Positions 15,647 through 24,000 of a DNA stretch of 24,000 bases are shown here, in pieces. The notes beneath the pieces are model-generated. The model saw only the letters and a list, made by a program, of their open reading frames with translations. It was not told the origin of the DNA and did no database searches. Numbering within the stretch: position 1 is the stretch's first letter; every line of letters begins with the position of its first letter. A program made the translations under genes and the position numbers. The stretch comes from Chloroflexota bacterium. Lineage in GTDB: Bacteria > Chloroflexota > Anaerolineae > Anaerolineales > UBA11858. The stretch lies in NCBI GenBank assembly GCA_030609055.1, contig JAUWCZ010000011.1, positions 1 to 24,000 on the forward strand. Reading direction: 5' to 3'.

Positions 15647-16966
15647 ATGATTTGGAACTTTCTGTTCATACTCCTGCTGGTTGCCTTAAACGGTTTTTTT
15701 GTGGCAACAGAATTTGCGGTCATCACAGCCCGAAAAACCCGTGTCCGCCTACAGGCTGAGGCGGGTAATGCTGCCGCAAAGCAGGTATTAATTTGGTTGG
15801 ATAATCCGGAAGCCCGGGACCGTTTAATTGCAGCTGCCCAATTAGGAATCACCATTGTCAGTCTGGCATTGGGCGCGGTGGGGGAAAACACATTTGAAGT
15901 CTTGCTGAAACCGGTTTTTCATTCCCTTGAGATATCGTTTCAGTGGAGCCGAATCGAACCGGTCCTGACTGCGCTGCCACTGATATTTTCTTTAATCATT
16001 GTCACCAGCTTGCATGTTGTCCTTGGTGAACAGGTCCCAAAAGTAGCCGCTCTTGAATCTCCAGAAAAGATTGCGTTCTTCTCTGCTCAACCTATGAAGT
16101 GGTTCAATACAATATTTACCTGGTTTGTAGACATTTTAGATTGGGCTACTCATAGCATACTACGCTTGGTAGGGGTAAAAAGAACCGGGGGCAGCCATTC
16201 GATTATCTATACCGTAGATGAATTAAAGGAGATCCTGGTTGAATCGGAACAAGTTGGGACGATTGAATCCCCTCAACGGGAAATGATGCATGCGATTTTT
16301 GACTTCAACCGATTGCTTGTGCGTCAGGTGATGCTCCCACGGACAGAGATTATCGCCTTTCCAGTGGAGATCCCCTTGGATGAAAGTATTCAGACTGCTG
16401 TGCAAAACCGTTTTACAAGATTTCCTGTATTTGAGGGTGATCTAGACAATATCATCGGCGTGGTTCATATTAAAGATTTGCTCCGCGCTCAACAAGACAA
16501 GAGCGGTGAATCCTTGACTATGGGTTCTCTTGCCCGTGAACCACTGTTTATCCCCGAGAGCAGCACGGTTAGAGCGTTGTTGGGTCATTTCCGCACACAC
16601 AGCCTTCATATTGCCATCGTCCTGGATGAATACGGCGGTACCGCCGGTTTAATTACTTTGGAAGATGCCCTGGAGGAGATTGTAGGAGAAATCAGCGATC
16701 CATTTGATATAGTTGCTCCGGAGATTCAGCGCATTAACCAGAATACCGTCCTGGTGGACGGATTGACCGCCATCGATGAAGTTAACCAGACTCTGGGAAC
16801 CAAATTCAATGATCCAAATTACGACACCATCGCTGGATATTTATTAGGTCATCTGGATCGGATACCTGTCCAGGGAGAAACCATCATGCTCGCAGGGGGA
16901 ATCCAACTGCAGGTAGCAGCCATGGATGGTTTGAGAATCTCCAAAGTCCGCATACAGGGTGTGTGA
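15647..16966 (+). CDS. CNNM/DUF21-CBS-CorC_HlyC family protein (hemolysin-family, putative Mg/Co efflux-type)
   Basis: The N-terminal DUF21 TM domain has the ATEFA motif ([12 protein letters not shown]). This is followed by a CBS pair and a C-terminal CorC_HlyC-like domain ([19 protein letters not shown]). Confidence 0.85.
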
Positions 16967-19538
16967 TCTCATGATGTTGATTGAGCAAAAAAACCCATCC
17001 TACGCCCGGATTGCGGTAAATGTCCCTCATGTCCGGGGAGTATATGATTATCACCTACCTTCGTCCATCCAAAAGTTAGTAAAGATCGGCCAATTGGTTA
17101 CTGTGCCATTTGGACGGCAAACCGCACAGGGGATCATTCTGGAATTTCCCTCCACACCGGAAGTGCCAAAAACGAAAGATATCCAAACTATTCTAGATCT
17201 CCTGCCGGTGGTAACGCCGTACCAAATCAAACTCGCAGAAAGGATATCTCTGGAAACCATCTCCCCGTTGGGAGAGACTTTGCATGCCATGCTCCCGGCA
17301 GGGTTAAGCATCAAAGGGGACAGTGAATACCGGCTTACAGAGCGCAGCCTGGCACTGCTGGAAGCTGGCGAACCGCTTTTACCAGAGCTAACATCGTCAC
17401 AAAATCACCTCCTGGAATTATTAATTCAACGAGGTCCCCTACGGGGTAGGCAGATAAATCGGGCTCTTCCGTATAAAAATTGGCGGAAAACTGCCGGCTC
17501 TCTTGAGCGTCGGGGAGTGATCAGTAGGCAATCAACCCTGGGTACTCCGACCGTCAAGCCCAAAATGGAACGGCGTCTCAAGTTTATTGGTGAAATGGCA
17601 GAAGCGATAGCCCAGATGGATACACTGGCTAAACCTGGGTTCCCGGAAGCATTAACCCGCAGACAGGCTGTGGTACACCTGGTAATGGAAAGTGATATCG
17701 AGCTTCCCTTATCCGAGATTTATCGCCAGACAGACAGCAATCTGAACGATCTCAAGCAGCTGGTACAACGAGGTCTGGTACAGATCCTGGAAATACCTGT
17801 TCTACGCGACCCGCTAGAACAGGTAACGGTCCGACCAACAAAAAAATTGAATCTTACCGAGGATCAGCAGATTACCTGGGATGCCATCCTGTCCTCATTT
17901 GAAGAGAAAAATCCTGCGCCGTTCCTTCTCCATGGTGTAACCGGATCAGGAAAAACAGAACTCTACCTGCAGGCAGTGGAACATGTCCTTGCTGGGGGTA
18001 AACAGGCAATCATCCTGGTTCCGGAAATCGCCCTTACCCCACAAACTGTCAGCCGGTTCATGAGTCGTTTCCCGGAGTGGGTTGGTGTGCTGCACTCCGA
18101 ACTCTCTCAGGGTGAACGATACGATACCTGGCGGCTAGCTCGCCAGGGAAAGCTCTCCGTTATAGTTGGTCCCCGAAGCGCATTATTCACTCCCTTTCCA
18201 AACCTTGGTTTAATTGTGGTAGATGAATGCCATGACGACTCCTACTACCAGGGTGAAATTTCCCCCCGCTACCACGCTGTCGAGTCAGCTGTCGCCTATG
18301 CAGCCATCACCGGATCAGTATGCATCCTGGGGTCAGCCACACCCGATGTTACCAGTATGTATCATGCATCCCACGGCGAGTGGCGTTTATTAACACTTCC
18401 CAAACGAATTCTGGCCCACCGCGATTCCATTCAAATCCAGCTCAAACAATCAGGCCGAGAGCCCGAAACCTTACGTTATCAACCACTGCGAAAGGATCTC
18501 CATAGTGCAGAGATGCCCCGGGTGGAACTCGTCGATATGAGAACAGAACTCAAAGAGGGCAACCGCTCAATCTTCAGCCGTGCTTTGCAGGATTCCCTTA
18601 TTTCAACGCTTGAAAAAGATGAGCAGGCAATTTTGTTTTTGAACCGGCGTGGAAGTGCCACATATGTATTCTGCAGGGATTGTGGTTATGCCATGCGCTG
18701 TCCCCGCTGCCATACCTCCCTCACTGCCCACCAATCGGACAGCTCTCTCCGCTGTCACCACTGTGGATACAAGAGAAAAATCCCTCAAACATGTCCCTCA
18801 TGTGGGAGTGCCCGGATACGTCATTTAGGAACCGGCACCGAGCAGGTTGAATCTACCCTTCAGAAACTAATACCGGGAGTACGTACCATTCGTTGGGACA
18901 GAGACACCACCAGGAAAAAAGGTGCCCACTGGGAGATTATGGAGCAGTTTTCTTCTCACCAGGCAGATGTTTTGATTGGGACCCAGATGTTAGCGAAAGG
19001 ACTGGATCTTCCCTTGGTCACTTTCGTGGGCAGTGTGCTGGCTGATACTGGGCTGCACTTGCCTGATTACCGGGCTTCCGAGCGAACCTTTCAGGTGCTG
19101 ACCCAGGTAGCAGGCAGGGCAGGACGCAGCCCCCTGGGAGGAAAGGTCATCCTGCAAACCTTTGAGCCGGATCATTATGTGATTCAGGCTGCCTCACAGC
19201 ACAACTACAGGGATTTTTATCAGCAGGAGATTGAATATCGACGGGATCTTGGGTATCCCCCCTTTGTTAAGCTGATCAGATTGGAAATTCGGGCAAGGGA
19301 TTCAAAGGCTGCCGAAGCTGAGGGGCAGGCATATGCCGCAGCGCTGAAGGGCTGGATCAAAACAGAAGGTTATCGGGCAACAACTCTGGTTGGACCGGTT
19401 CCACCTTATTTTACGCGCATTCGAGGGGAAACACGCTGGCAGATCCTGCTGCGCGGGCCCAACCCGGCGGACCTGGTACGGGATCATCCTCCTGGTCCAG
19501 AATGGATCATCGAGGTTAATCCACCGGTCATCCTTTAA
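16959..19538 (+). CDS. priA: Primosomal protein N' (replication restart helicase PriA)
   Basis: Walker A GVTGSGKTE, DECHD box, and the Cys-rich zinc region CRDCGYAMRCPRCHTSLTAH...CHHCGY...CPSCGS. The N-terminus YARIAVNVP...YDYHLP is typical. The GTG at 16959 overlaps the upstream stop; the ATG at 16971 is an equally plausible start. Confidence 0.9.
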   Translation: MCDLMMLIEQKNPSYARIAVNVPHVRGVYDYHLPSSIQKLVKIGQLVTVPFGRQTAQGIILEFPSTPEVPKTKDIQTILDLLPVVTPYQIKLAERISLETISPLGETLHAMLPAGLSIKGDSEYRLTERSLALLEAGEPLLPELTSSQNHLLELLIQRGPLRGRQINRALPYKNWRKTAGSLERRGVISRQSTLGTPTVKPKMERRLKFIGEMAEAIAQMDTLAKPGFPEALTRRQAVVHLVMESDIELPLSEIYRQTDSNLNDLKQLVQRGLVQILEIPVLRDPLEQVTVRPTKKLNLTEDQQITWDAILSSFEEKNPAPFLLHGVTGSGKTELYLQAVEHVLAGGKQAIILVPEIALTPQTVSRFMSRFPEWVGVLHSELSQGERYDTWRLARQGKLSVIVGPRSALFTPFPNLGLIVVDECHDDSYYQGEISPRYHAVESAVAYAAITGSVCILGSATPDVTSMYHASHGEWRLLTLPKRILAHRDSIQIQLKQSGREPETLRYQPLRKDLHSAEMPRVELVDMRTELKEGNRSIFSRALQDSLISTLEKDEQAILFLNRRGSATYVFCRDCGYAMRCPRCHTSLTAHQSDSSLRCHHCGYKRKIPQTCPSCGSARIRHLGTGTEQVESTLQKLIPGVRTIRWDRDTTRKKGAHWEIMEQFSSHQADVLIGTQMLAKGLDLPLVTFVGSVLADTGLHLPDYRASERTFQVLTQVAGRAGRSPLGGKVILQTFEPDHYVIQAASQHNYRDFYQQEIEYRRDLGYPPFVKLIRLEIRARDSKAAEAEGQAYAAALKGWIKTEGYRATTLVGPVPPYFTRIRGETRWQILLRGPNPADLVRDHPPGPEWIIEVNPPVIL

Positions 19539-19585
19539 AGAGGGGTTTCTTCAGTTTAGGGGGAGATTTACTAACAGAAAATTTT

Positions 19586-19810
19586 TCACCTGCACTGATT
19601 CACAAAATCTTCAATGCGATCGAGCGCCTTTTCAATCTTTTCGTAGCGTGTTGCATAGGAGCAGCGTACAAATCCTTTTCCGCCCGCGCCAAAAGCCGAA
19701 CCTGGAACGACTGCTACGCGTTCTTCCTGAAGCAGATTCTTAGCAAATAATTCATCATCCAAGGTTCCGACAATATCAAAGAACATCCTGATACCTGATG
19801 GTTTTTTATC
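19586..19810 (-). pseudogene. 3' relic of a class-I (AspC-type) PLP aminotransferase gene
   Basis: ...PSGIRMFFDIVGTLDDELFAKNLLQEERVAVVPGSAFGAGGKGFVRCSYATRYEKIEKALDRIEDFV reads like an aminotransferase C-terminus (VAVVPGSAFG...R.SYA). Only about 72 codons remain. The rest of track ORF 19586..19900 reads into the inserted DNA. Confidence 0.7.
19795..19805. repeat. Left copy of the 11-bp direct repeat bracketing the insert (CTGATGGTTTT)
   Basis: 10/11 identical to 22668-22678. Both copies sit in the same codon phase of the disrupted gene. Confidence 0.6.
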
Positions 19811-19849
19811 TTGCATGATGAATACTATCAAATATCCAGTCAGTGGAAT

Positions 19850-19875
19850 TGTGGGAATATACGTATTTTCCCACA
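19850..19875. promoter_or_regulatory. 26-bp near-perfect palindrome (candidate operator) upstream of the Fic promoter
   Basis: TGTGGGAA-TATACGTATT-TTCCCACA, with 24 of 26 positions symmetric. GAATATACG recurs at 19884-19892, abutting the -35. Confidence 0.45.
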
Positions 19876-19893
19876 GATTGCGCGAATATACGC

Positions 19894-19921
19894 TTGACAA
19901 ATTGGATTAATCGTATATAAT
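19894..19921 (+). promoter_or_regulatory. Consensus sigma-70 promoter of the Fic gene
   Basis: TTGACA (19894-19899), a 16-nt spacer, TATAAT (19916-19921), then a GGAGG SD (19942-19946) 6 nt before ATG 19953. Confidence 0.65.
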
Positions 19922-19952
19922 CAATGATAGTGAGAATATTCGGAGGAATAAG

Positions 19953-21044
19953 ATGCGACTGATACTTGGGGTCGATATGGATAACGTTGAAATAAAAAAG
20001 GATTTAGGTTTTATTGAGAGCCGCCTTTATGTAGCGAGAAGCCTGATACCGAAAGAATATGAGATTGCTTTCCAGGAAACTGCTCACTATATTAGCGCTC
20101 ACACCTCCACTGCGATTGAAGGGAATCCTTTGGGAGAAGAAGAAGCAATGAATATACTCGCAGAAAAACCCAATCCGATTGCCCCGGATCAACTTGAGAA
20201 AATAAATCTTGATGAAGCATATGAATTTATGTTCTTTCTTGCATCAGACAAAACAACAATAATAGACGAGGGAATCATCCGAACAATTAATTCTATGATA
20301 TTAAAGGGATTGCCCGAATCACAAGCGCGTGCAAGGGGTCAATATAGAGTTGGACCATCTAAAATCGTAGACTCAGTTACCAGGGAACGAAGATACCTTC
20401 CCCCCAAGTCAACATGGGTTCCAACCTTGATGAAGAATTTTGTTCTTGATATTGATGAGTGGATCCAGAATTATCCTGGTCCTGTGGCAGCAGCTCTTGC
20501 CCACTTTGGGTTAATATCAATTCATCCATTTGAGGATGGGAACGGTCGAACCGCACGATTGATTGCTGATATGATTTTGCACATAACTGATTGTTCTGCA
20601 GATGGCATGGTTTCAGTAAGTCAAGAAATCCATAATCAACTTGGTACCTACTATAAAACACTTCACAAAGTTCAAGGAGAAAATTATAAAGAAGATGTTG
20701 ATGTTACAGATTTCATCATCTTTCATACAGGCGCACTTGCTTCCGCTGCCATATCGTTGGAGGAAAAAGCAATCCATTTTAGTCGATTACGAGACAATAT
20801 CACTAACCAATTGAGTGGTCTTCTTAATGAACGCCAAGTAACAGGATTAATGTATATGGTAGACATTGGTCAAATTTCTACATCACGATATGCAAGGTTA
20901 ACAGATAGTTCACAGAACACTGCTTTGACAGACTTGAATCCATTAGTCGAGCTTGGTTTAGTAAATCGTATTGGAGGAGGGAAGAACACAAGATATATTC
21001 TGGATCCATCTTCTAAGATAGGTAATGATGAGATAGTTGATTAG
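19953..21044 (+). CDS. Fic-domain protein (AMPylase-type), class II with N-terminal inhibitory motif and C-terminal winged-helix
   Basis: Fic motif HPFEDGNGRTAR (aa 191-202, nt 20523-20558). Inhibitory-helix motif S-TAI-E-G, i.e. [ST]xxxE[GN] (aa 52-57, nt 20106-20123). The C-terminal region LTDLNPLVELGLVNRIGGGKNTRYIL is wHTH-like. Confidence 0.85.
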   Translation: MRLILGVDMDNVEIKKDLGFIESRLYVARSLIPKEYEIAFQETAHYISAHTSTAIEGNPLGEEEAMNILAEKPNPIAPDQLEKINLDEAYEFMFFLASDKTTIIDEGIIRTINSMILKGLPESQARARGQYRVGPSKIVDSVTRERRYLPPKSTWVPTLMKNFVLDIDEWIQNYPGPVAAALAHFGLISIHPFEDGNGRTARLIADMILHITDCSADGMVSVSQEIHNQLGTYYKTLHKVQGENYKEDVDVTDFIIFHTGALASAAISLEEKAIHFSRLRDNITNQLSGLLNERQVTGLMYMVDIGQISTSRYARLTDSSQNTALTDLNPLVELGLVNRIGGGKNTRYILDPSSKIGNDEIVD

Positions 21045-21068
21045 GATAAATTTCAGAAAGGTACAATG

Positions 21069-21112
21069 AGCATCCTCAAGATTTGTATTCTATTCATAGT
21101 ATTGAGGATGCT
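21069..21112 (+). terminator. Long hairpin after the Fic gene (probable terminator; also a possible IS insertion landmark)
   Basis: AGCATCCTCAA (21069-21079) and TTGAGGATGCT (21102-21112) form a perfect 11-bp stem with a 22-nt loop, followed by ACTTTTGATT. Confidence 0.5.
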
Positions 21113-21222
21113 ACTTTTGATTGCATCTCCATAATTATTTTCGGGTGATACTATGAAAGCGTTCCTGCCGTAGTGCTAAACTAAGAGTAGTGACAAACCA
21201 GTTTAGCAAAAGGAGGAACGCT

Positions 21223-22266
21223 ATGTATCCATTTTACCTTGGAATTGACCTGCATCTCAAGCGAACTTACCTGGTACTGATGAACGCCGAGGGGGAAGTG
21301 ATCGATAAACGGCGCCTGAAGAACACTGAGATGGCATCCTATATTTCCAAAAATATACCCAAAGAAACCTATGCGGTGATGGAGGCAACCCGGAACTGGC
21401 CCTTCTTCTATGATCTTTTAGAGAAGCATGTTGAGCGGGTTGAGCTGGCGCATGCCAAGGGTGTCCGGATGATCGCGGAAGCAGCAGTGAAGACGGACCA
21501 GATCGATGCCTCAGTGCTGGCGCATTTGGCAAGGTTAAACTTTTTGCCAATCGCCTATGCCGCGCCCAAGGAGATTCGTGATTTACGGCAGCATCTGCGC
21601 TACCGGGAATGGTTGATAGACGAACGGCGGCGGGGGAAGAACCGGATCCATGCCGTTTTGGCGGGATACAACCAGGCCTCCCCTGTGACAGATCTGTTTG
21701 GCCGCTCAGGACGGGAATGGCTGAAGGAGATAGCTGAGAAGGAGCTGCGCCCTACATCCCGACGAGTGGTCCTCGAGACGCTGACTTTGATCGATCAGCT
21801 GAATGCTCAGATCAAGGAATTGGCGAAGGATATCCCGCTACCAGAGGAGCTGAAGCCAAAGGCTGAGCTGCTGATGAGTATGCCGGGTATAGGTAAGCTG
21901 CTGTCAGCGGTGATCCTGGCAGAGATCGGTGACATCATCCGATTCAAATCGCCCAAGGCATTGTGCAACTGGGCTGGATTGACACCCCGAGTGCATAAAA
22001 GCGATACAGTGGTGAGACATGGACGGATCTCTAAGCAGGGTTCACGTTACTTGCGATCTGCGATGGTGTGTGCTGCTATGACGGCATGTCGGATCAGTCC
22101 ACGTTGGTACCGGGTGTATGAGAACCTGGCCCGACGGATTGGGCGCAGAGGAGCCAAAGTGGCAGTGGGGCGACGGTTATTGACGGTGGTTTATTTTATG
22201 TTGAAACGAAACCAACCGTATGAAGAAGATTATGAGCAGCGACGAGTAGCTGAACAGGGAGCCTGA
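21223..22266 (+). CDS. IS110-family transposase/recombinase (DEDD RuvC-like N-domain + Transposase_20 C-domain)
   Basis: The N-terminus MYPFYLGIDLHLKRTYLV has the DEDD first Asp, followed by AVMEATRNW. The C-terminal motifs are LMSMPGIGKLLSAVILAEIGDIIRFKSPKALCNWAGLTPRVHKSD...GRISKQGSRYLR. An AGGAGG SD (21211-21216) lies 6 nt upstream of ATG 21223. The track start GTG 21190 is less likely. Confidence 0.9.
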   Translation: MYPFYLGIDLHLKRTYLVLMNAEGEVIDKRRLKNTEMASYISKNIPKETYAVMEATRNWPFFYDLLEKHVERVELAHAKGVRMIAEAAVKTDQIDASVLAHLARLNFLPIAYAAPKEIRDLRQHLRYREWLIDERRRGKNRIHAVLAGYNQASPVTDLFGRSGREWLKEIAEKELRPTSRRVVLETLTLIDQLNAQIKELAKDIPLPEELKPKAELLMSMPGIGKLLSAVILAEIGDIIRFKSPKALCNWAGLTPRVHKSDTVVRHGRISKQGSRYLRSAMVCAAMTACRISPRWYRVYENLARRIGRRGAKVAVGRRLLTVVYFMLKRNQPYEEDYEQRRVAEQGA

Positions 22267-22667
22267 CCCAACTGCTGGTTATCAAAAACCGATCTGGTGA
22301 ATGAGGCCCCTGGGATAAACCGAATGGTATAGTGTGCCTGATCTTGAATAAGATCTGCTTGAATGGAATAGCTCAAGTTGAGCACGGTTAGATGCATTGG
22401 ATCAAGGTTGCTGCTGATAGGGATTCACCAGGAAAAAAAGAACAGAAAGATAAGGATCGAGACAGATAAGAGTATGTCTCGGGAGGTATGATTGTGTTGT
22501 CTTTATTGAAAAAAGGAACCCTCTTGACGAACGCTTTCTTAGATGCAGTTTGGGTGCAAATCGGATTGAACTTGTGGAAACAATGGAATTTATGGACTAA
22601 ATCATCCCTATCGAGTGGACACAATGGACATAATGGACCCCTGTGTAAAGGATAAACTCCTTCCGAT
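22267..22667 (+). ncRNA. Candidate structured non-coding tail of the IS110-family element (possible bridge/seek-type guide RNA); extent and strand not established
   Basis: 401 nt without a convincing CDS. A 9-bp long-range pairing CTGGTGAAT/ATTCACCAG (22294-22302 / 22423-22431) encloses the hairpin GATCTT-GAAT-AAGATC (22340-22355) and the palindrome GCTCAAGTTGAGC (22371-22383). Another hairpin is GAGACA..TGTCTC (22459-22480). There are short matches to the insert termini (see findings). Confidence 0.25.
22574..22638 (+). repeat. Two imperfect 24-bp direct repeats near the right end of the insert
   Basis: GTGGAAACAATGGAATTTATGGAC (22574-22597) versus GTGGACACAATGGACATAATGGAC (22615-22638). 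They are 20/24 identical with starts 41 bp apart. Confidence 0.7.
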
Positions 22668-22678
22668 CTGATTGTTTT
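22668..22678. repeat. Right copy of the 11-bp direct repeat bracketing the insert (CTGATTGTTTT)
   Basis: 10/11 identical to 19795-19805. Confidence 0.6.
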
Positions 22679-22716
22679 AAAGTGGCAACACGCTTGGCAA
22701 TGACATCACGGCTCAT
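22669..22716 (-). pseudogene. 5' relic (16 codons) of the disrupted aminotransferase gene, with intact SD and ATG
   Basis: Minus strand caGGAGtcaaaATG (ATG 22716) is followed by MSRDVIAKRVATLKQS. This resembles the aminotransferase N-terminal pattern (L/I)(S/A)xRVxxLxPS. The reading frame then runs into insert DNA and stops at 22597. Confidence 0.5.
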
Positions 22717-22755
22717 TTTGACTCCTGGATGTTACCTGCCCCGGCTTGGTTTGGA

Positions 22756-23769
22756 TCAGATTTCAATCTCGGTATGATCCCCAATATTGATAGAGTGAGA
22801 CTCTCCTTTGATCACGGTAAACTGACCGATTAATGAAGCCTCTAGAATCACATCTTCAACCTGGGTCTTCTTTTCAATTATCGAATTCTGGATAACACTG
22901 CCCAGAATTCGGCAGCCTGCTTCTATCGTGGCATGTGGTCCGATGACCGAGGATTCCACTTCCGCTTCCGGGTGGATGTATACTGGAGGAATTATATTAA
23001 CCCCCATCCGTTGGCCAGCTTTTTCAGAGTTATCATGTCCATGATCCAAAAGGTAGCGGTTGGTGCTTAACACAGCTTCAAATGTCCCGGCATCCAGCCA
23101 GACATTGACTTTCTGGGTGCGCATATGACAACTTCCACTCTCCAGCATTATATTAATTGCATCTGCCAGGAAAAACTCCCCCTTGAGCTGAACTTTCTGG
23201 TCCATTTGCATTTCAATCGCCTGGATTAAATCCTGTCCTTTTTTAAAATAATAAAATCCCACCAGCGCCAGGTTGTTATCCATCGCTTTGGGTTTTTCAA
23301 TCAACCGGGTAACCCGCTGTTTCTTCCCCACCTCGGCAACACCGAATCGTCTGGGGTCCGGGACCGGTTTCACCCAAGCGACAATGTCTGATTTCTCTTG
23401 ATCAAGGAAGGAAAGGTCAGTCTCAATCAACGTATCCGCAAAAACCATGATCATTGGTCCATCAATATATTCCTTTGCCAAGTAGATAGCATGGGATTGG
23501 CCACGCATTTCCTCCTGAACCACAAAGTGCACTGTCAGTTCAGGATGCTCTTCTTCCATAAAGGTCTGGATTTTGTCTCCCAGGTAGCCGACAACAAAGA
23601 CATATTCCACTTTTAGGTCAGCCGGTAGAGTGGCAAATGTATCCAATACATGTTCAATGACGGTTTTACCAGCCAGGCTGATCAGTTGTTTCGGTCTGCT
23701 CCAGGTGTGAGGTCTGAGTCGTTTCCCGTAACCTGCCATGGGAATAACTACTTTTAGTATCTTTTTCAT
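22756..23769 (-). CDS. Sugar-phosphate nucleotidyltransferase (glucose-1-phosphate thymidylyl/uridylyltransferase-like) with a C-terminal left-handed beta-helix
   Basis: N-terminal signature VIPMAGYGKRLRPHTWSRPKQLISLAGKTVIEHVLD (G-x-G-x-R-L). The C-terminal hexapeptide-repeat-like segment reads IGPHATIEAGCRILGSVIQNSIIEKKTQVEDVILEASLIG. 337 aa. Confidence 0.8.
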   Translation of the reverse strand: MKKILKVVIPMAGYGKRLRPHTWSRPKQLISLAGKTVIEHVLDTFATLPADLKVEYVFVVGYLGDKIQTFMEEEHPELTVHFVVQEEMRGQSHAIYLAKEYIDGPMIMVFADTLIETDLSFLDQEKSDIVAWVKPVPDPRRFGVAEVGKKQRVTRLIEKPKAMDNNLALVGFYYFKKGQDLIQAIEMQMDQKVQLKGEFFLADAINIMLESGSCHMRTQKVNVWLDAGTFEAVLSTNRYLLDHGHDNSEKAGQRMGVNIIPPVYIHPEAEVESSVIGPHATIEAGCRILGSVIQNSIIEKKTQVEDVILEASLIGQFTVIKGESHSINIGDHTEIEI

Positions 23770-23921
23770 CTGTTCCCCTTTGATTCAATCAACTTTTTGG
23801 AAATTCATTATAACGGAGATATACTCCTTGAGGTACTGACAAATGACACAGCCAGATGTGGAAACCCCTTAACGTTCTTAGTGGTCTTAGGGGCAGAAAG
23901 ATCCTTCCCCGGTCCAGAAAC

Positions 23922-24000
23922 TCAGGCTAACTGTGTGTCCAACTCCGTCAGGGTTTTTTCAATCAGCTGAACAATTGAACCCAGGGTATCCGCATCAAAT
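23922..24000 (-). CDS. C-terminal 25 codons of an unidentified gene entering from beyond the window
   Basis: The minus-strand frame is open from 23999 to TGA at 23924-23922 (..FDADTLGSIVQLIEKTLTELDTQLA*). It is too short to identify. Confidence 0.3.
   Translation of the reverse strand, partial: FDADTLGSIVQLIEKTLTELDTQLA

What the first reader, a model, noticed from the sequence alone, without database searches (positions are those of the whole stretch)
22267..22667. 401-nt structured tail after the IS110 recombinase contains short matches to both insert termini and to the target repeat: candidate bridge/seek guide RNA
IS110-family recombinases use an element-encoded non-coding RNA whose internal loops base-pair with target and donor DNA. 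This was published in 2024 for IS621 (bridge RNA) and for IS1111/IS110 (seekRNA). In the IS1111-type layout the RNA lies 3' of the recombinase gene. Here the tail has these features:
- A 9-bp long-range stem (22294-22302 / 22423-22431) encloses smaller hairpins.
- CCGATCTG (22289-22296) is identical to the extreme right terminus/junction (22663-22670).
- AAAAACCGATCTGG (22284-22297) is nearly the reverse complement of the left junction CCTGATGGTTTTT (19794-19806). By hand alignment that is 12 matches, 1 mismatch and 1 extra base.
- TGATCTTGAAT (22339-22349) is 9/11 identical to the first 11 nt of the insert, TTATCTTGCAT (19806-19816).
These are the kinds of guide-to-end and guide-to-target correspondences expected of such an RNA. 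However, they are short, I found them by eye, and I cannot assess significance or fold the RNA here.
Basis: inference. Interest (0 to 1): 0.65.

Follow-up and report, generated by a model that had tools for sequence, protein, structure and literature searches.

The report
IS1111-type insertion sequence guide RNA
The stretch after the recombinase gene does encode the guide ("bridge"/"seek") RNA that this kind of jumping gene uses to find its landing site.

Summary

About 90 related copies from Anaerolineales genomes and metagenomes place the IS at 21146-22545 (1.4 kb):
- core TG at each junction
- 10-bp subterminal inverted repeats
- a 77-nt left end and a 279-nt right non-coding end

The Fic gene and 22546-22667 lie outside the IS.

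A structured RNA of about 150 nt (22255-22402), overlapping the recombinase stop codon, is conserved in every copy. Six helices show compensatory base changes.

Four guide segments track the DNA across subfamilies with unrelated targets:
- RTG 22267-22275, antisense to the right target
- LTG 22293-22299, same sense as the left target plus core
- RDG 22326-22332, antisense to the left IS end
- LDG 22388-22396, identical to the right IS end

The top-strand guide lies 5' of the bottom-strand guide, as published for IS1111 seekRNAs.

Joining the ends through one TG creates TTGACG-17-TACTAT, a junction promoter. No plus-strand promoter was found in the linear copy.

This is a new member of a known kind.

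The parts
21139..21145 (+). Left target (LT), TTTCGGG, immediately 5' of the left core
   Evidence: The flank differs between copies but covaries with RNA positions 22293-22297.
21146..21147 (+). Left copy of the core dinucleotide TG
   Evidence: TG precedes ATA in every copy. Uninterrupted targets read ..GG-TG-CA... The junction promoter has a 17-nt spacer only if the join carries 2 nt.
21148..21222 (+). Left end. It holds a -10-like TACTAT (21149-21154) and the subterminal inverted repeat GAAAGCGTTC (21155-21164).
   Evidence: Conserved as TGATAnnATGAAAGCGTTCC about 78 nt upstream of the ATG in about 75 loci. The inverted repeat was read directly from the sequence.
21223..22266 (+). IS110-family DEDD/Ser recombinase gene, 347 aa; an AAGGAGG ribosome-binding site lies upstream
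   Evidence: Pfam PF01548 + PF02371. NCBIfam NF033542 at 235.9 bits against a cut-off of 140. PDB IS621 and ISCro4 at E about 1e-18. D9, E54, D92, D95 and S260 are invariant.
22255..22402 (+). Bridge/seek RNA core. It starts 10 nt before the stop codon (TGA 22264-22266).
   Evidence: Covariance model R1 scores 175.5 bits over 22236-22429, the only strong hit in the window. There is one hit directly 3' of the recombinase gene in essentially every locus.
22255..22264 (+). P1, 5' strand; pairs with 22304-22312 and closes the target-binding loop
   Evidence: 99% of cells paired. Pair 22256/22311 occurs as GC 36, AU 26, CG 8, UA 8.
22267..22275 (+). RTG, the top-strand ('T') guide: CCCAACUGC, antisense to core G + right target (GCAGTTTGGG, 22545-22554)
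   Evidence: Antiparallel complementary diagonal 22272..22267 against RT+3..+7, z 4.6-8.4. 9-11-nt exact cognate matches in many subfamilies. Best 10-nt window averages 8.04 for cognate pairs and 6.14 for non-cognate pairs. In this copy: 6 bp, a 1-nt offset, then 3 bp.
22276..22291 (+). H0 hairpin between the two target guides (UGGUU / AACCG)
   Evidence: 91% paired, with GGUC/GACC compensatory variants.
22293..22299 (+). LTG, the bottom-strand ('B') guide: UCUGG + core UG, same sense as left target + core
   Evidence: Identity to the cognate flank at -5..-1 is .76 .74 .70 .90 .96, against .37 .42 .26 .40 .55 for non-cognate pairs; permutation 0/10000. Same-sense diagonal z 5.3-7.8. In this copy 6 of 8 positions match (AUCUGGUG against TTCGGGTG).
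22304..22312 (+). P1, 3' strand (within the conserved UGAUGAGGNCCC block)
22318..22322 (+). P2, 5' strand; pairs with 22398-22402 and closes the donor-binding multiloop
   Evidence: Pairs 22320/22400 (CG 45, UA 27) and 22321/22399 (CG 53, UA 21).
22326..22332 (+). RDG candidate: GGUAUAG, antisense to the left IS end TGATAC
   Evidence: The base 5' of UAU is complementary to left-end position 6: 0.78 observed against 0.38 expected, z 6.1. CCUAU goes with TGATAGG and UUUAU/AUUAU with TGATAAG. This is the weakest of the four guides.
22333..22386 (+). P3 (GUGC/GCAC) enclosing hairpins H2 (22340-22345/22350-22355) and H3 (22358-22362/22373-22377)
   Evidence: H2 is 89% and H3 92% paired, with 5 of 6 and 5 of 5 pairs showing double changes. 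H3 is absent in some copies. The P3 register is ambiguous in about 30 sequences.
22388..22396 (+). LDG: UUAGAUGCA, identical to the right IS end + core + 2 nt (22539-22547)
   Evidence: Conserved even at 59% protein identity. ATAGATG occurs in both RNA and right end in L036, L040 and L073. The first base after GATG is identical in 53 of 54 loci (C/C 47, T/T 6).
22403..22523 (+). Rest of the right non-coding end; role unknown.
   Evidence: Conserved only among close relatives and shorter in other subfamilies.
22524..22543 (+). Right IS end: -35-like TTGACG (22524-22529), subterminal inverted repeat GAACGCTTTC (22529-22538), tip TTAGA (22539-22543)
   Evidence: CTTGACnnnCGCTTTCTTAGATG is conserved in about 75 loci. 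The modelled junction gives TTGAC(A/G)-17-TAnnAT in all 56 loci tested.
22544..22545 (+). Right copy of the core TG
   Evidence: Same evidence as for the left core.
22546..22667 (+). Right target and the rest of a repeated host element (CAGTTTGGGTGCA unit, then TGGA(A/C)A repeats). This is not part of the IS.
   Evidence: IS-free copies of the element occur in L018 at 2126-2310, L001 at about 1140-1290, and twice in L084. TRF finds a 9-nt repeat at 22616-22638.

Best explanation
Window 21146-22545 is an intact 1.4-kb insertion sequence of the IS110 family with IS1111-type architecture. Its 3' non-coding region encodes a bridge/seek RNA of about 150 nt (22255-22402).

The RNA has two modules.
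- Target module: helix P1 closes a loop that carries an antisense guide to the right half of the target (RTG), a small hairpin, and a sense guide to the left half of the target plus the core TG (LTG).
- Donor module: helix P2 closes a multiloop that carries an antisense guide to the left IS end (RDG) and a sense copy of the right IS end plus core (LDG).

Proposed mechanism, inferred by analogy with IS621 and ISEc11:
1. The element excises as a circle, joining ...TTAGA-TG-ATAC....
2. That junction creates a TTGACG-17-TACTAT promoter, which transcribes the recombinase mRNA with the guide RNA in its 3' part.
3. The RNA is processed and bound by the recombinase.
4. It pairs with both strands of the circle junction and of a ...YTGG-TG-CA... 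target, and the DEDD/Ser recombinase exchanges strands at the TG.

What is shown here: the element boundaries, the conserved structure, and the covariation of guides with DNA. What is inferred: transcription, processing, protein binding and the chemistry.
For: Boundaries:
- Homology among copies starts at 21146 and ends at about 22545.
- IS-free copies of the target read ..CGG-TG-CAGCTTTGG-TG-CA...

Recombinase: Pfam and NCBIfam place it in the IS110 family, 'RNA-guided transposase'. It is similar to the solved IS621 and ISCro4 structures.

Structure:
- MAFFT alignment: 86.0% of cells paired against 76.2% in shuffles; 175 against 55.7 double-change cells; 0/500 shuffles as high; slid controls 30-53%.
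- CM alignment of 83 distinct sequences: 88.6% against 77.0%; 314 against 94.8.
- The model finds exactly one copy after the recombinase gene in nearly all 91 loci, including sequences not used to build it.

Guides:
- LTG permutation test 0/10000.
- RTG cognate matches of 9-11 nt in subfamilies with unrelated targets (for example L060 11/11, L009 11/11, L070 10/10), and reprogramming between close relatives (L022 GCAACCGTG, L018 GCAGTTCCG).
- A scan of all RNA columns against all junction positions recovers the same diagonals.
- LDG and right-end covariation.

Promoter: the junction promoter is present in all 56 modelled junctions. No plus-strand promoter was found in the linear copy.

Literature:
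- The 3' location, the top-strand guide lying 5' of the bottom-strand guide, and co-transcription from a junction promoter match Siddiquee 2024 (PMC11187229).
- A bridge RNA in the right end of IS1111 elements, with donor guides in a multiloop, matches Durrant 2024 (PMC11208160).
Against: - There are no expression, processing or binding data.
- No Rfam family matches, even at E <= 10.
- The single-sequence fold is no more stable than shuffles.
- In this copy the guides fit their own flanks imperfectly: LTG 6 of 8; RTG 6 bp, a 1-nt offset, then 3 bp; RDG 4 Watson-Crick pairs and 1 wobble.
- Support for the RDG is modest and partly confounded with subfamily identity.
- The P3 register is ambiguous.
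- The z-scores and shuffles do not correct for relatedness of the sequences.
- In ISEc11 a short RNA carrying only the target guides sufficed, so the donor module may not act as a guide.
Confidence: 0.85

Rival explanations
1. Only the first module (P1-RTG-H0-LTG, about 22255-22312) is a functional guide, that is, a short seekRNA that reads the target alone. Under this reading the second module is a scaffold or processing element. Its copy of the right-end tip would have another cause, and the IS ends would be read through the subterminal inverted repeats by the protein.
For: For ISEc11 the 82-nt seekRNA carrying only the two target matches supported transposition better than the long form, and the role of the long RNA is unresolved. 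RDG covariation here is modest. Most of the LDG is invariant, so covariation rests on a few positions.
Against: The LDG changes together with the right end at the positions that do vary: ATAGATG in both in three loci, and T/T in 6 of 6. RDG position 22327 is complementary to the variable left-end position 6 in 78% of loci against 38% expected. The P2/P3 multiloop is conserved with compensatory changes across the whole family. Durrant 2024 describes donor-binding nucleotides in a multiloop for IS1111 members.
Confidence: 0.12
2. The conserved tail acts as DNA rather than RNA. It would hold recombinase-binding sites, an internal copy of the right end, or a 3' UTR/terminator, and the resemblance to the flanks would reflect insertion-site preference or DNA repeats.
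For: There is no transcript evidence and no Rfam hit. An internal 9-nt copy of the right end could in principle be a protein-binding site.
Against: Six helices keep pairing through changes on both sides, which is a property of a folded single strand. One guide is antisense and the other sense to the two halves of the same target, in exact register, across unrelated targets. No terminator-like site is present.
Confidence: 0.02
3. One reading: a 401-nt RNA (22267-22667), enclosed by the 9-bp stem, whose loops match the ends of a 2.86-kb insert at 19806 and 22667.
For: The quoted strings exist. A 12-bp imperfect direct repeat does flank 19808-22667 (read).
Against: Those positions are not the IS ends. 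The matches are at chance level. The stem is not conserved. 22546-22667 is host target DNA that also occurs without any IS.
Confidence: 0.01

Closest known systems
IS1111-family seekRNAs (ISEc11, ISPa11, ISKpn4, ISPst6; Siddiquee et al. 2024, PMC11187229)
   Same: - The guide RNA lies in the long non-coding region 3' of the recombinase gene.
- Subterminal inverted repeats are present.
- The top-strand match lies 5' of the bottom-strand match, with a stem between.
- Insertion is target-specific and orientation-specific, with no added bases.
- A promoter is created at the circle junction, so the RNA would be co-transcribed with the recombinase mRNA.
   Different: - The recombinase is only 23-27% identical to IS4321-type proteobacterial members.
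- The hosts are uncultured Anaerolineales.
- The target is a different repeated element.
- A second, donor-matching module is evident here, whereas the seekRNA paper left the role of the long form open.
- Nothing here has been tested experimentally.
IS621 / IS110-group bridge RNA (Durrant et al. 2024, PMC11208160; structures 8WT6 and related)
   Same: - There are two modules, each presenting one sense and one antisense guide.
- A 2-nt core lies at both junctions and is covered by three or four of the guides, depending on subfamily.
- The recombinase has the same two domains and the aligned serine.
- The sense guides run 1-2 nt past the core; the match at these positions rests mostly on invariant bases and was not tested as a handshake guide.
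   Different: - The RNA is in the right end, not the left end.
- The order of guides within each module is reversed.
- The donor guides sit in a multiloop with two hairpins rather than a simple internal loop.
- The core is TG rather than CT.
- The subterminal inverted repeats are long (10 bp).
IS1111-attC group (Tetu and Holmes 2008; Post and Hall 2009, cited in PMC11208160; recalled from memory beyond that citation)
   Same: The IS lands at a fixed position in a short repeated intergenic element. In one genome (L014/L015) that element lies about 60 bp from the end of an integron-integrase gene.
   Different: The element does not fold as an attC-like hairpin (ssDNA z = +1.26). It consists of direct 9-11-nt repeats. 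No integrase gene was recognised in the part of the window examined in detail (about 16960-24000). Membership is not supported.

Membership tests
IS110-family RNA-guided recombinase | N-terminal DEDD (RuvC-like) domain plus C-terminal Transposase_20 domain | tested here: met
   PF01548 at 64.8 bits and PF02371 at 97 bits. NF033542 at 235.9 bits against a cut-off of 140.
IS110-family RNA-guided recombinase | Conserved catalytic residues (D, E, D, D and the C-terminal Ser) | tested here: met
   D9, E54, D92, D95 and S260 are invariant in 9 proteins down to 56% identity. The Ser of GLTPRVHKS aligns with the Ser of IS621 ..TPRRYES... Assigning these residues a catalytic role rests on published IS621 work.
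IS1111 subgroup | Subterminal inverted repeats of 7-17 bp | tested here: met
   GAAAGCGTTC (21155-21164) and GAACGCTTTC (22529-22538): 10 bp, perfect, conserved in about 75 loci.
IS1111 subgroup | The longer non-coding region lies downstream of the recombinase gene | tested here: met
   Left end 77 nt (21146-21222); right non-coding end 279 nt (22267-22545).
IS1111 subgroup | GL-P----S(T)G motif in the C-terminal domain | tested here: inconclusive
   The sequence reads GLTPRVHKSD. G, L, P and S are in place, but D follows the Ser instead of G.
IS1111 subgroup | The recombinase clusters phylogenetically with IS1111 members | not tested
   Only pairwise figures are available: 23-27% identity to IS4321-type plasmid copies, best plasmid hit 38%. 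No tree was built.
Bridge RNA / seekRNA | Conserved secondary structure supported by compensatory changes | tested here: met
   0/500 shuffles reach the observed values, and slid controls are far lower.
Bridge RNA / seekRNA | [quoted passage not shown] | tested here: met
Bridge RNA / seekRNA | [quoted passage not shown] | tested here: met
   In the window's subfamily it covers only the G of the core.
Bridge RNA / seekRNA | IS1111-type order: the top-strand match lies 5' of the bottom-strand match | tested here: met
   RTG at 22267-22275 precedes LTG at 22293-22299.
Bridge RNA / seekRNA | Donor guides matching the right IS end (LDG) and the left IS end (RDG) | tested here: inconclusive
   The LDG is clear. 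The RDG is supported at one variable position only.
Bridge RNA / seekRNA | The RNA is made, bound by the recombinase and required for transposition | not testable with these tools
   There are no transcriptome or biochemical data for these uncultured organisms.
Bridge RNA / seekRNA | A hit to the published covariance models | not testable with these tools
   Those models are not available here. Rfam 15 gives no hit at gathering score or at E <= 10.

The most novel reading that the evidence does not exclude
This Anaerolineales lineage may be a deep, separate IS1111-like branch with three distinctive features.
- It carries a complete four-guide bridge RNA.
- Its targets are tandem 11-bp units (NTTYGGGTGCA) inside an integron-associated repeat that several distinct IS subfamilies hit at different positions.
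- The segment at 22423-22431 may pair with the LTG as a guide-occluding switch.

None of the three features is established here.
Probability: 0.12. Interest if true: 0.5.

Novelty: new member of a known kind. Interest (0 to 1): 0.3.

Why it matters
The result adds a well-resolved natural family of RNA-guided recombinases. About 90 copies span 56-95% protein identity, with many naturally reprogrammed guide/target pairs. They come from an uncultured phylum-level group far from the proteobacterial elements studied so far.

The data give a guide map, core dinucleotide, exact ends and junction promoter, which could be used directly to clone and test an IS1111-type bridge system. They also bear on whether IS1111 elements read their own ends through the RNA, a question the seekRNA work left open.

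For genome annotation, the result shows that 21146-22545 is the mobile unit. The Fic gene and the TGGAC-repeat element are not part of it.

Tried and rejected
- **Exact-sequence look-ups.** Look-ups of the recombinase found nothing on record.
- **Rfam.** No hit at gathering score or at E <= 10.
- **Single-sequence folding.** Uninformative.
- **Right terminus.** I first took the 7 nt after GATGCA (GTTTGGG) to be the IS's own right terminus or a duplication carried over from the previous site. I rejected this when IS-free copies of the target showed the same tandem units, and because only a 2-nt TG join gives the 17-nt promoter spacer.
- **Small hairpin.** A hairpin at about 22312-22322 was dropped in favour of P2, which has compensatory support.
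It is not conserved.
- **attC hypothesis.** The idea that the target element is an integron attC hairpin is not supported.
- **tRNA hypothesis.** The idea that right flanks in L002, L004, L005 and L061 are intact tRNA genes fails: ARAGORN finds none.
- **Validated seekRNA relatives.** A plasmid search returned only distant IS110-family hits, so I made no direct homology test against ISEc11 or ISKpn4.

Full report
**1.

All quoted strings are present at the stated positions:
- CCGATCTG at 22289-22296 and 22663-22670.
- AAAAACCGATCTGG against rc(19794-19806) = AAAAACCATCAGG.
- TGATCTTGAAT against TTATCTTGCAT, 9/11.
- The complementary 9-mers 22294-22302 and 22423-22431.

They carry no weight. 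Dinucleotide shuffles of the tail reach 8 nt or more in 54% of trials. Folding the tail alone gives z = -0.95 (293 nt) and +0.56 (401 nt). Rfam has no match.

**2. Where the element really ends**

The ORF at 21223-22266 is an IS110-family recombinase:
- Pfam PF01548 + PF02371.
- NCBIfam 'IS110 family RNA-guided transposase' at 235.9 bits.
- Similar to the solved IS621 and ISCro4 structures.

Scans of genome and metagenome collections gave 91 loci with relatives at 56-95% protein identity. Those from named genome records are mostly Anaerolineales MAGs; the metagenome contigs carry no taxon.

Homology among copies begins at GTGATACTATGAAAGCG (21145/21146) and runs to CTTGACGAACGCTTTCTTAGATGCA (to 22547). 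The Fic gene (19953-21044) and 22546-22667 are therefore outside the IS.

The ends carry a perfect 10-bp subterminal inverted repeat: GAAAGCGTTC at 21155-21164 and GAACGCTTTC at 22529-22538. The left non-coding end is 77 nt and the right one 279 nt. This is the IS1111 layout.

IS-free copies of the flanking element read ...TTTCTCGG-TG-CAGCTTTGG-TG-CAATCAGCGTGGAAAAGATGGAATTTATGGAC... (L018 at 2126-2310; also L001 and L084). The target is therefore ...YGG-TG-CA... and the core shared by donor and target is TG (21146-21147 and 22544-22545).

Joining ...TTAGA + TG + ATAC... gives TTGACG-17 nt-TACTAT in the window, and TTGAC(A/G)-17-TAnnAT in all 56 modelled junctions. The linear copy has no plus-strand promoter-like site between 21000 and 22750. 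This matches the junction promoter described for ISEc11.

**3. The RNA**

The conserved block starts inside the coding region and covers 22255-22402. On a MAFFT alignment of 49 sequences I placed six helices:

| Helix | Coordinates |
|---|---|
| P1 | 22255-22264 / 22304-22312 |
| H0 | 22276-22280 / 22287-22291 |
| P2 | 22318-22322 / 22398-22402 |
| P3 | 22333-22337 / 22382-22386 |
| H2 | 22340-22345 / 22350-22355 |
| H3 | 22358-22362 / 22373-22377 |

Support for this structure:
- 86.0% of cells pair against 76.2% in shuffles, with 175 against 55.7 double-change cells. No shuffle in 500 reaches these values, and slid controls give 30-53%.
- A covariance model built from the alignment hits the window once, at 22236-22429 with 175.5 bits.
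- The model hits one copy directly after the recombinase gene in nearly every locus, including sequences not in the seed.
- On that 83-sequence alignment the figures are 88.6% against 77.0%, and 314 against 94.8.
- Single pairs are telling: 22256/22311 occurs as GC 36, AU 26, CG 8 and UA 8.
- P3 is the weak helix, because two registers coexist.

**4. The guides**

*LTG.* The five bases 5' of the conserved UGAUGAGG block, followed by UG, have the same sense as the left flank plus core. Identity to the cognate flank at -5..-1 is 0.76, 0.74, 0.70, 0.90, 0.96, against 0.37, 0.42, 0.26, 0.40, 0.55 for non-cognate pairs. A permutation test gives 0/10000.

*RTG.* The segment just after the stop codon is antisense to the core G plus the right target. 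Cognate matches of 9-11 nt occur in subfamilies with unrelated targets: L060 ATGCGGGAGGT, L009 ATGCTTCGCGA, L070 GCGTAACTAC. They also differ between close relatives: L022 GCAACCGTG, L018 GCAGTTCCG. A match of 9/10 or better occurs in 21 of 50 cognate pairs and 30 of 2450 non-cognate pairs.

*LDG.* UUAGAUGCA (22388-22396) equals the right IS end plus core plus 2 nt (22539-22547). It changes together with the right end: ATAGATG in both in three loci, and the base after GAUG identical in 53 of 54 loci.

*RDG.* GGUAUAG (22326-22332) is antisense to the left IS end TGATAC. The base 5' of UAU is complementary to the variable left-end position in 78% of loci against 38% expected.

A scan of every RNA column against every junction position, with no prior assumption, returns these same diagonals as its top hits.

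In this copy the fit is imperfect:
- LTG: AUCUGGUG against TTCGGGTG, 6 of 8.
- RTG: 6 bp, a 1-nt offset, then 3 bp.

**5. How it most likely works**

The order RTG - hairpin - LTG matches the rule reported for IS1111 seekRNAs, with the top-strand match 5' of the bottom-strand match. Donor-matching bases in a multiloop match the description of predicted IS1111 bridge RNAs.

The proposed steps are:
1. The element excises to a circle.
2. The junction promoter switches on.
3. The recombinase and RNA are co-transcribed and the RNA is processed.
4. The ribonucleoprotein pairs with both strands of donor and target.
5. Strands are exchanged at TG.

The boundaries, the structure and the guide covariation are shown here. 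Everything downstream of transcription is inferred from IS621 and ISEc11.

The main open point is whether the second module really guides donor recognition, because a short target-only RNA sufficed for ISEc11.

**6. Comparison and novelty**

Both 2024 papers already established guide RNAs for this family, and one predicted them in 93% of IS1111 elements. This is therefore a new member of a known kind. It is distant in sequence from the studied elements (23-27% identity to IS4321-type copies) and unusually well documented by natural variation.

**7. Caveats**

- There are no expression data.
- The shuffle-based statistics do not correct for shared ancestry.
- IS1111 membership by phylogeny was not tested.
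- The GL-P----S(T)G motif reads ...KSD here.

Noticed in passing
window 19795-19807 and 22668-22679; 19586-19900(-) and 22664-22711(-): CTGATGGTTTTTT and CTGATTGTTTTA form a 12-bp imperfect direct repeat around a 2.86-kb segment that holds the Fic gene, the IS and the TGGAC-repeat element. Removing the segment with one repeat copy joins MSRDVIAKRVATLKQS in frame to GIRMFFDIVG...VAVVPGSAFG. The result is an 87-aa aminotransferase-like remnant that lacks the middle of the enzyme; Pfam matches only model positions 312-361. The larger segment may itself be a mobile or cassette-like insert.
   Followed up: partly
window 19953-21044 (+): A Fic/DOC family protein (HPFEDGNGRTAR motif) with a DIP2311-like C-terminal domain just below the curated Pfam cut-off (26.5 bits against 27). 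It lies immediately upstream of the IS and is followed by a hairpin at about 21079-21121. It is not part of the IS.
   Followed up: partly
window 22546-22667; L018 2126-2310; L001 about 1140-1290; L084 (- strand, two copies): The IS target is a repeated intergenic element of about 170-190 bp. It often begins GAGTCGCC, then has 1-3 tandem 11-mers (NTTYGGGTGCA), then 9-11-nt TGGA(A/C)A repeats. Copies recur 0.3-1.7 kb apart in some genomes. Its nature is unknown, and it does not fold as a hairpin.
   Followed up: partly
L015 1380-2363 (identical region in L014): An integron integrase gene (TIGR02249 at 454 bits against a cut-off of 265) ends about 60 bp before the target element that carries the IS. 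This hints that the element is integron-associated.
   Followed up: partly
L010 1-4400: Five RNA hits and tandem partial IS copies on a long-read contig binned as Alphaproteobacteria. One junction reads GATGCAACTGTGGTGATAC, consistent with a right end and a left end inserted in adjacent 11-bp target units. It could also be an assembly artefact.
   Followed up: no
L084 (- strand) about 213-330: A distant subfamily (59% protein identity) sits in the TGGAC repeats of the same host element, in the opposite orientation. It has a duplicated right-end fragment (CATCTAAGAAAGCGTTTGTCA, twice).
   Followed up: no
L035 and L037, right flank within 30 nt of the IS: Relative to L053, the right flank of L037 carries an extra TGATACCGGG, which contains the first 6 nt of the left IS end. 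This may be an excision footprint or an aborted event.
   Followed up: no
L061 left flank; L002 right flank: These flanks look like tRNA fragments (rc GGTTCGAGTCC...GCGCCCA in L061; GTAGCTCAATGGATAGAGCG in L002). ARAGORN finds no intact tRNA in these loci.
   Followed up: partly
window 22423-22431: The segment complementary to the LTG is partly conserved as CACCAG or CCCG in close relatives. It could sequester the guide, but no compensatory changes were seen.
   Followed up: partly
window 21223-22263 (protein): A weak sub-threshold match to the TIGR-Tas RNA-guided endonuclease model (NF052498 at 38.7 bits against a cut-off of 100).
   Followed up: no
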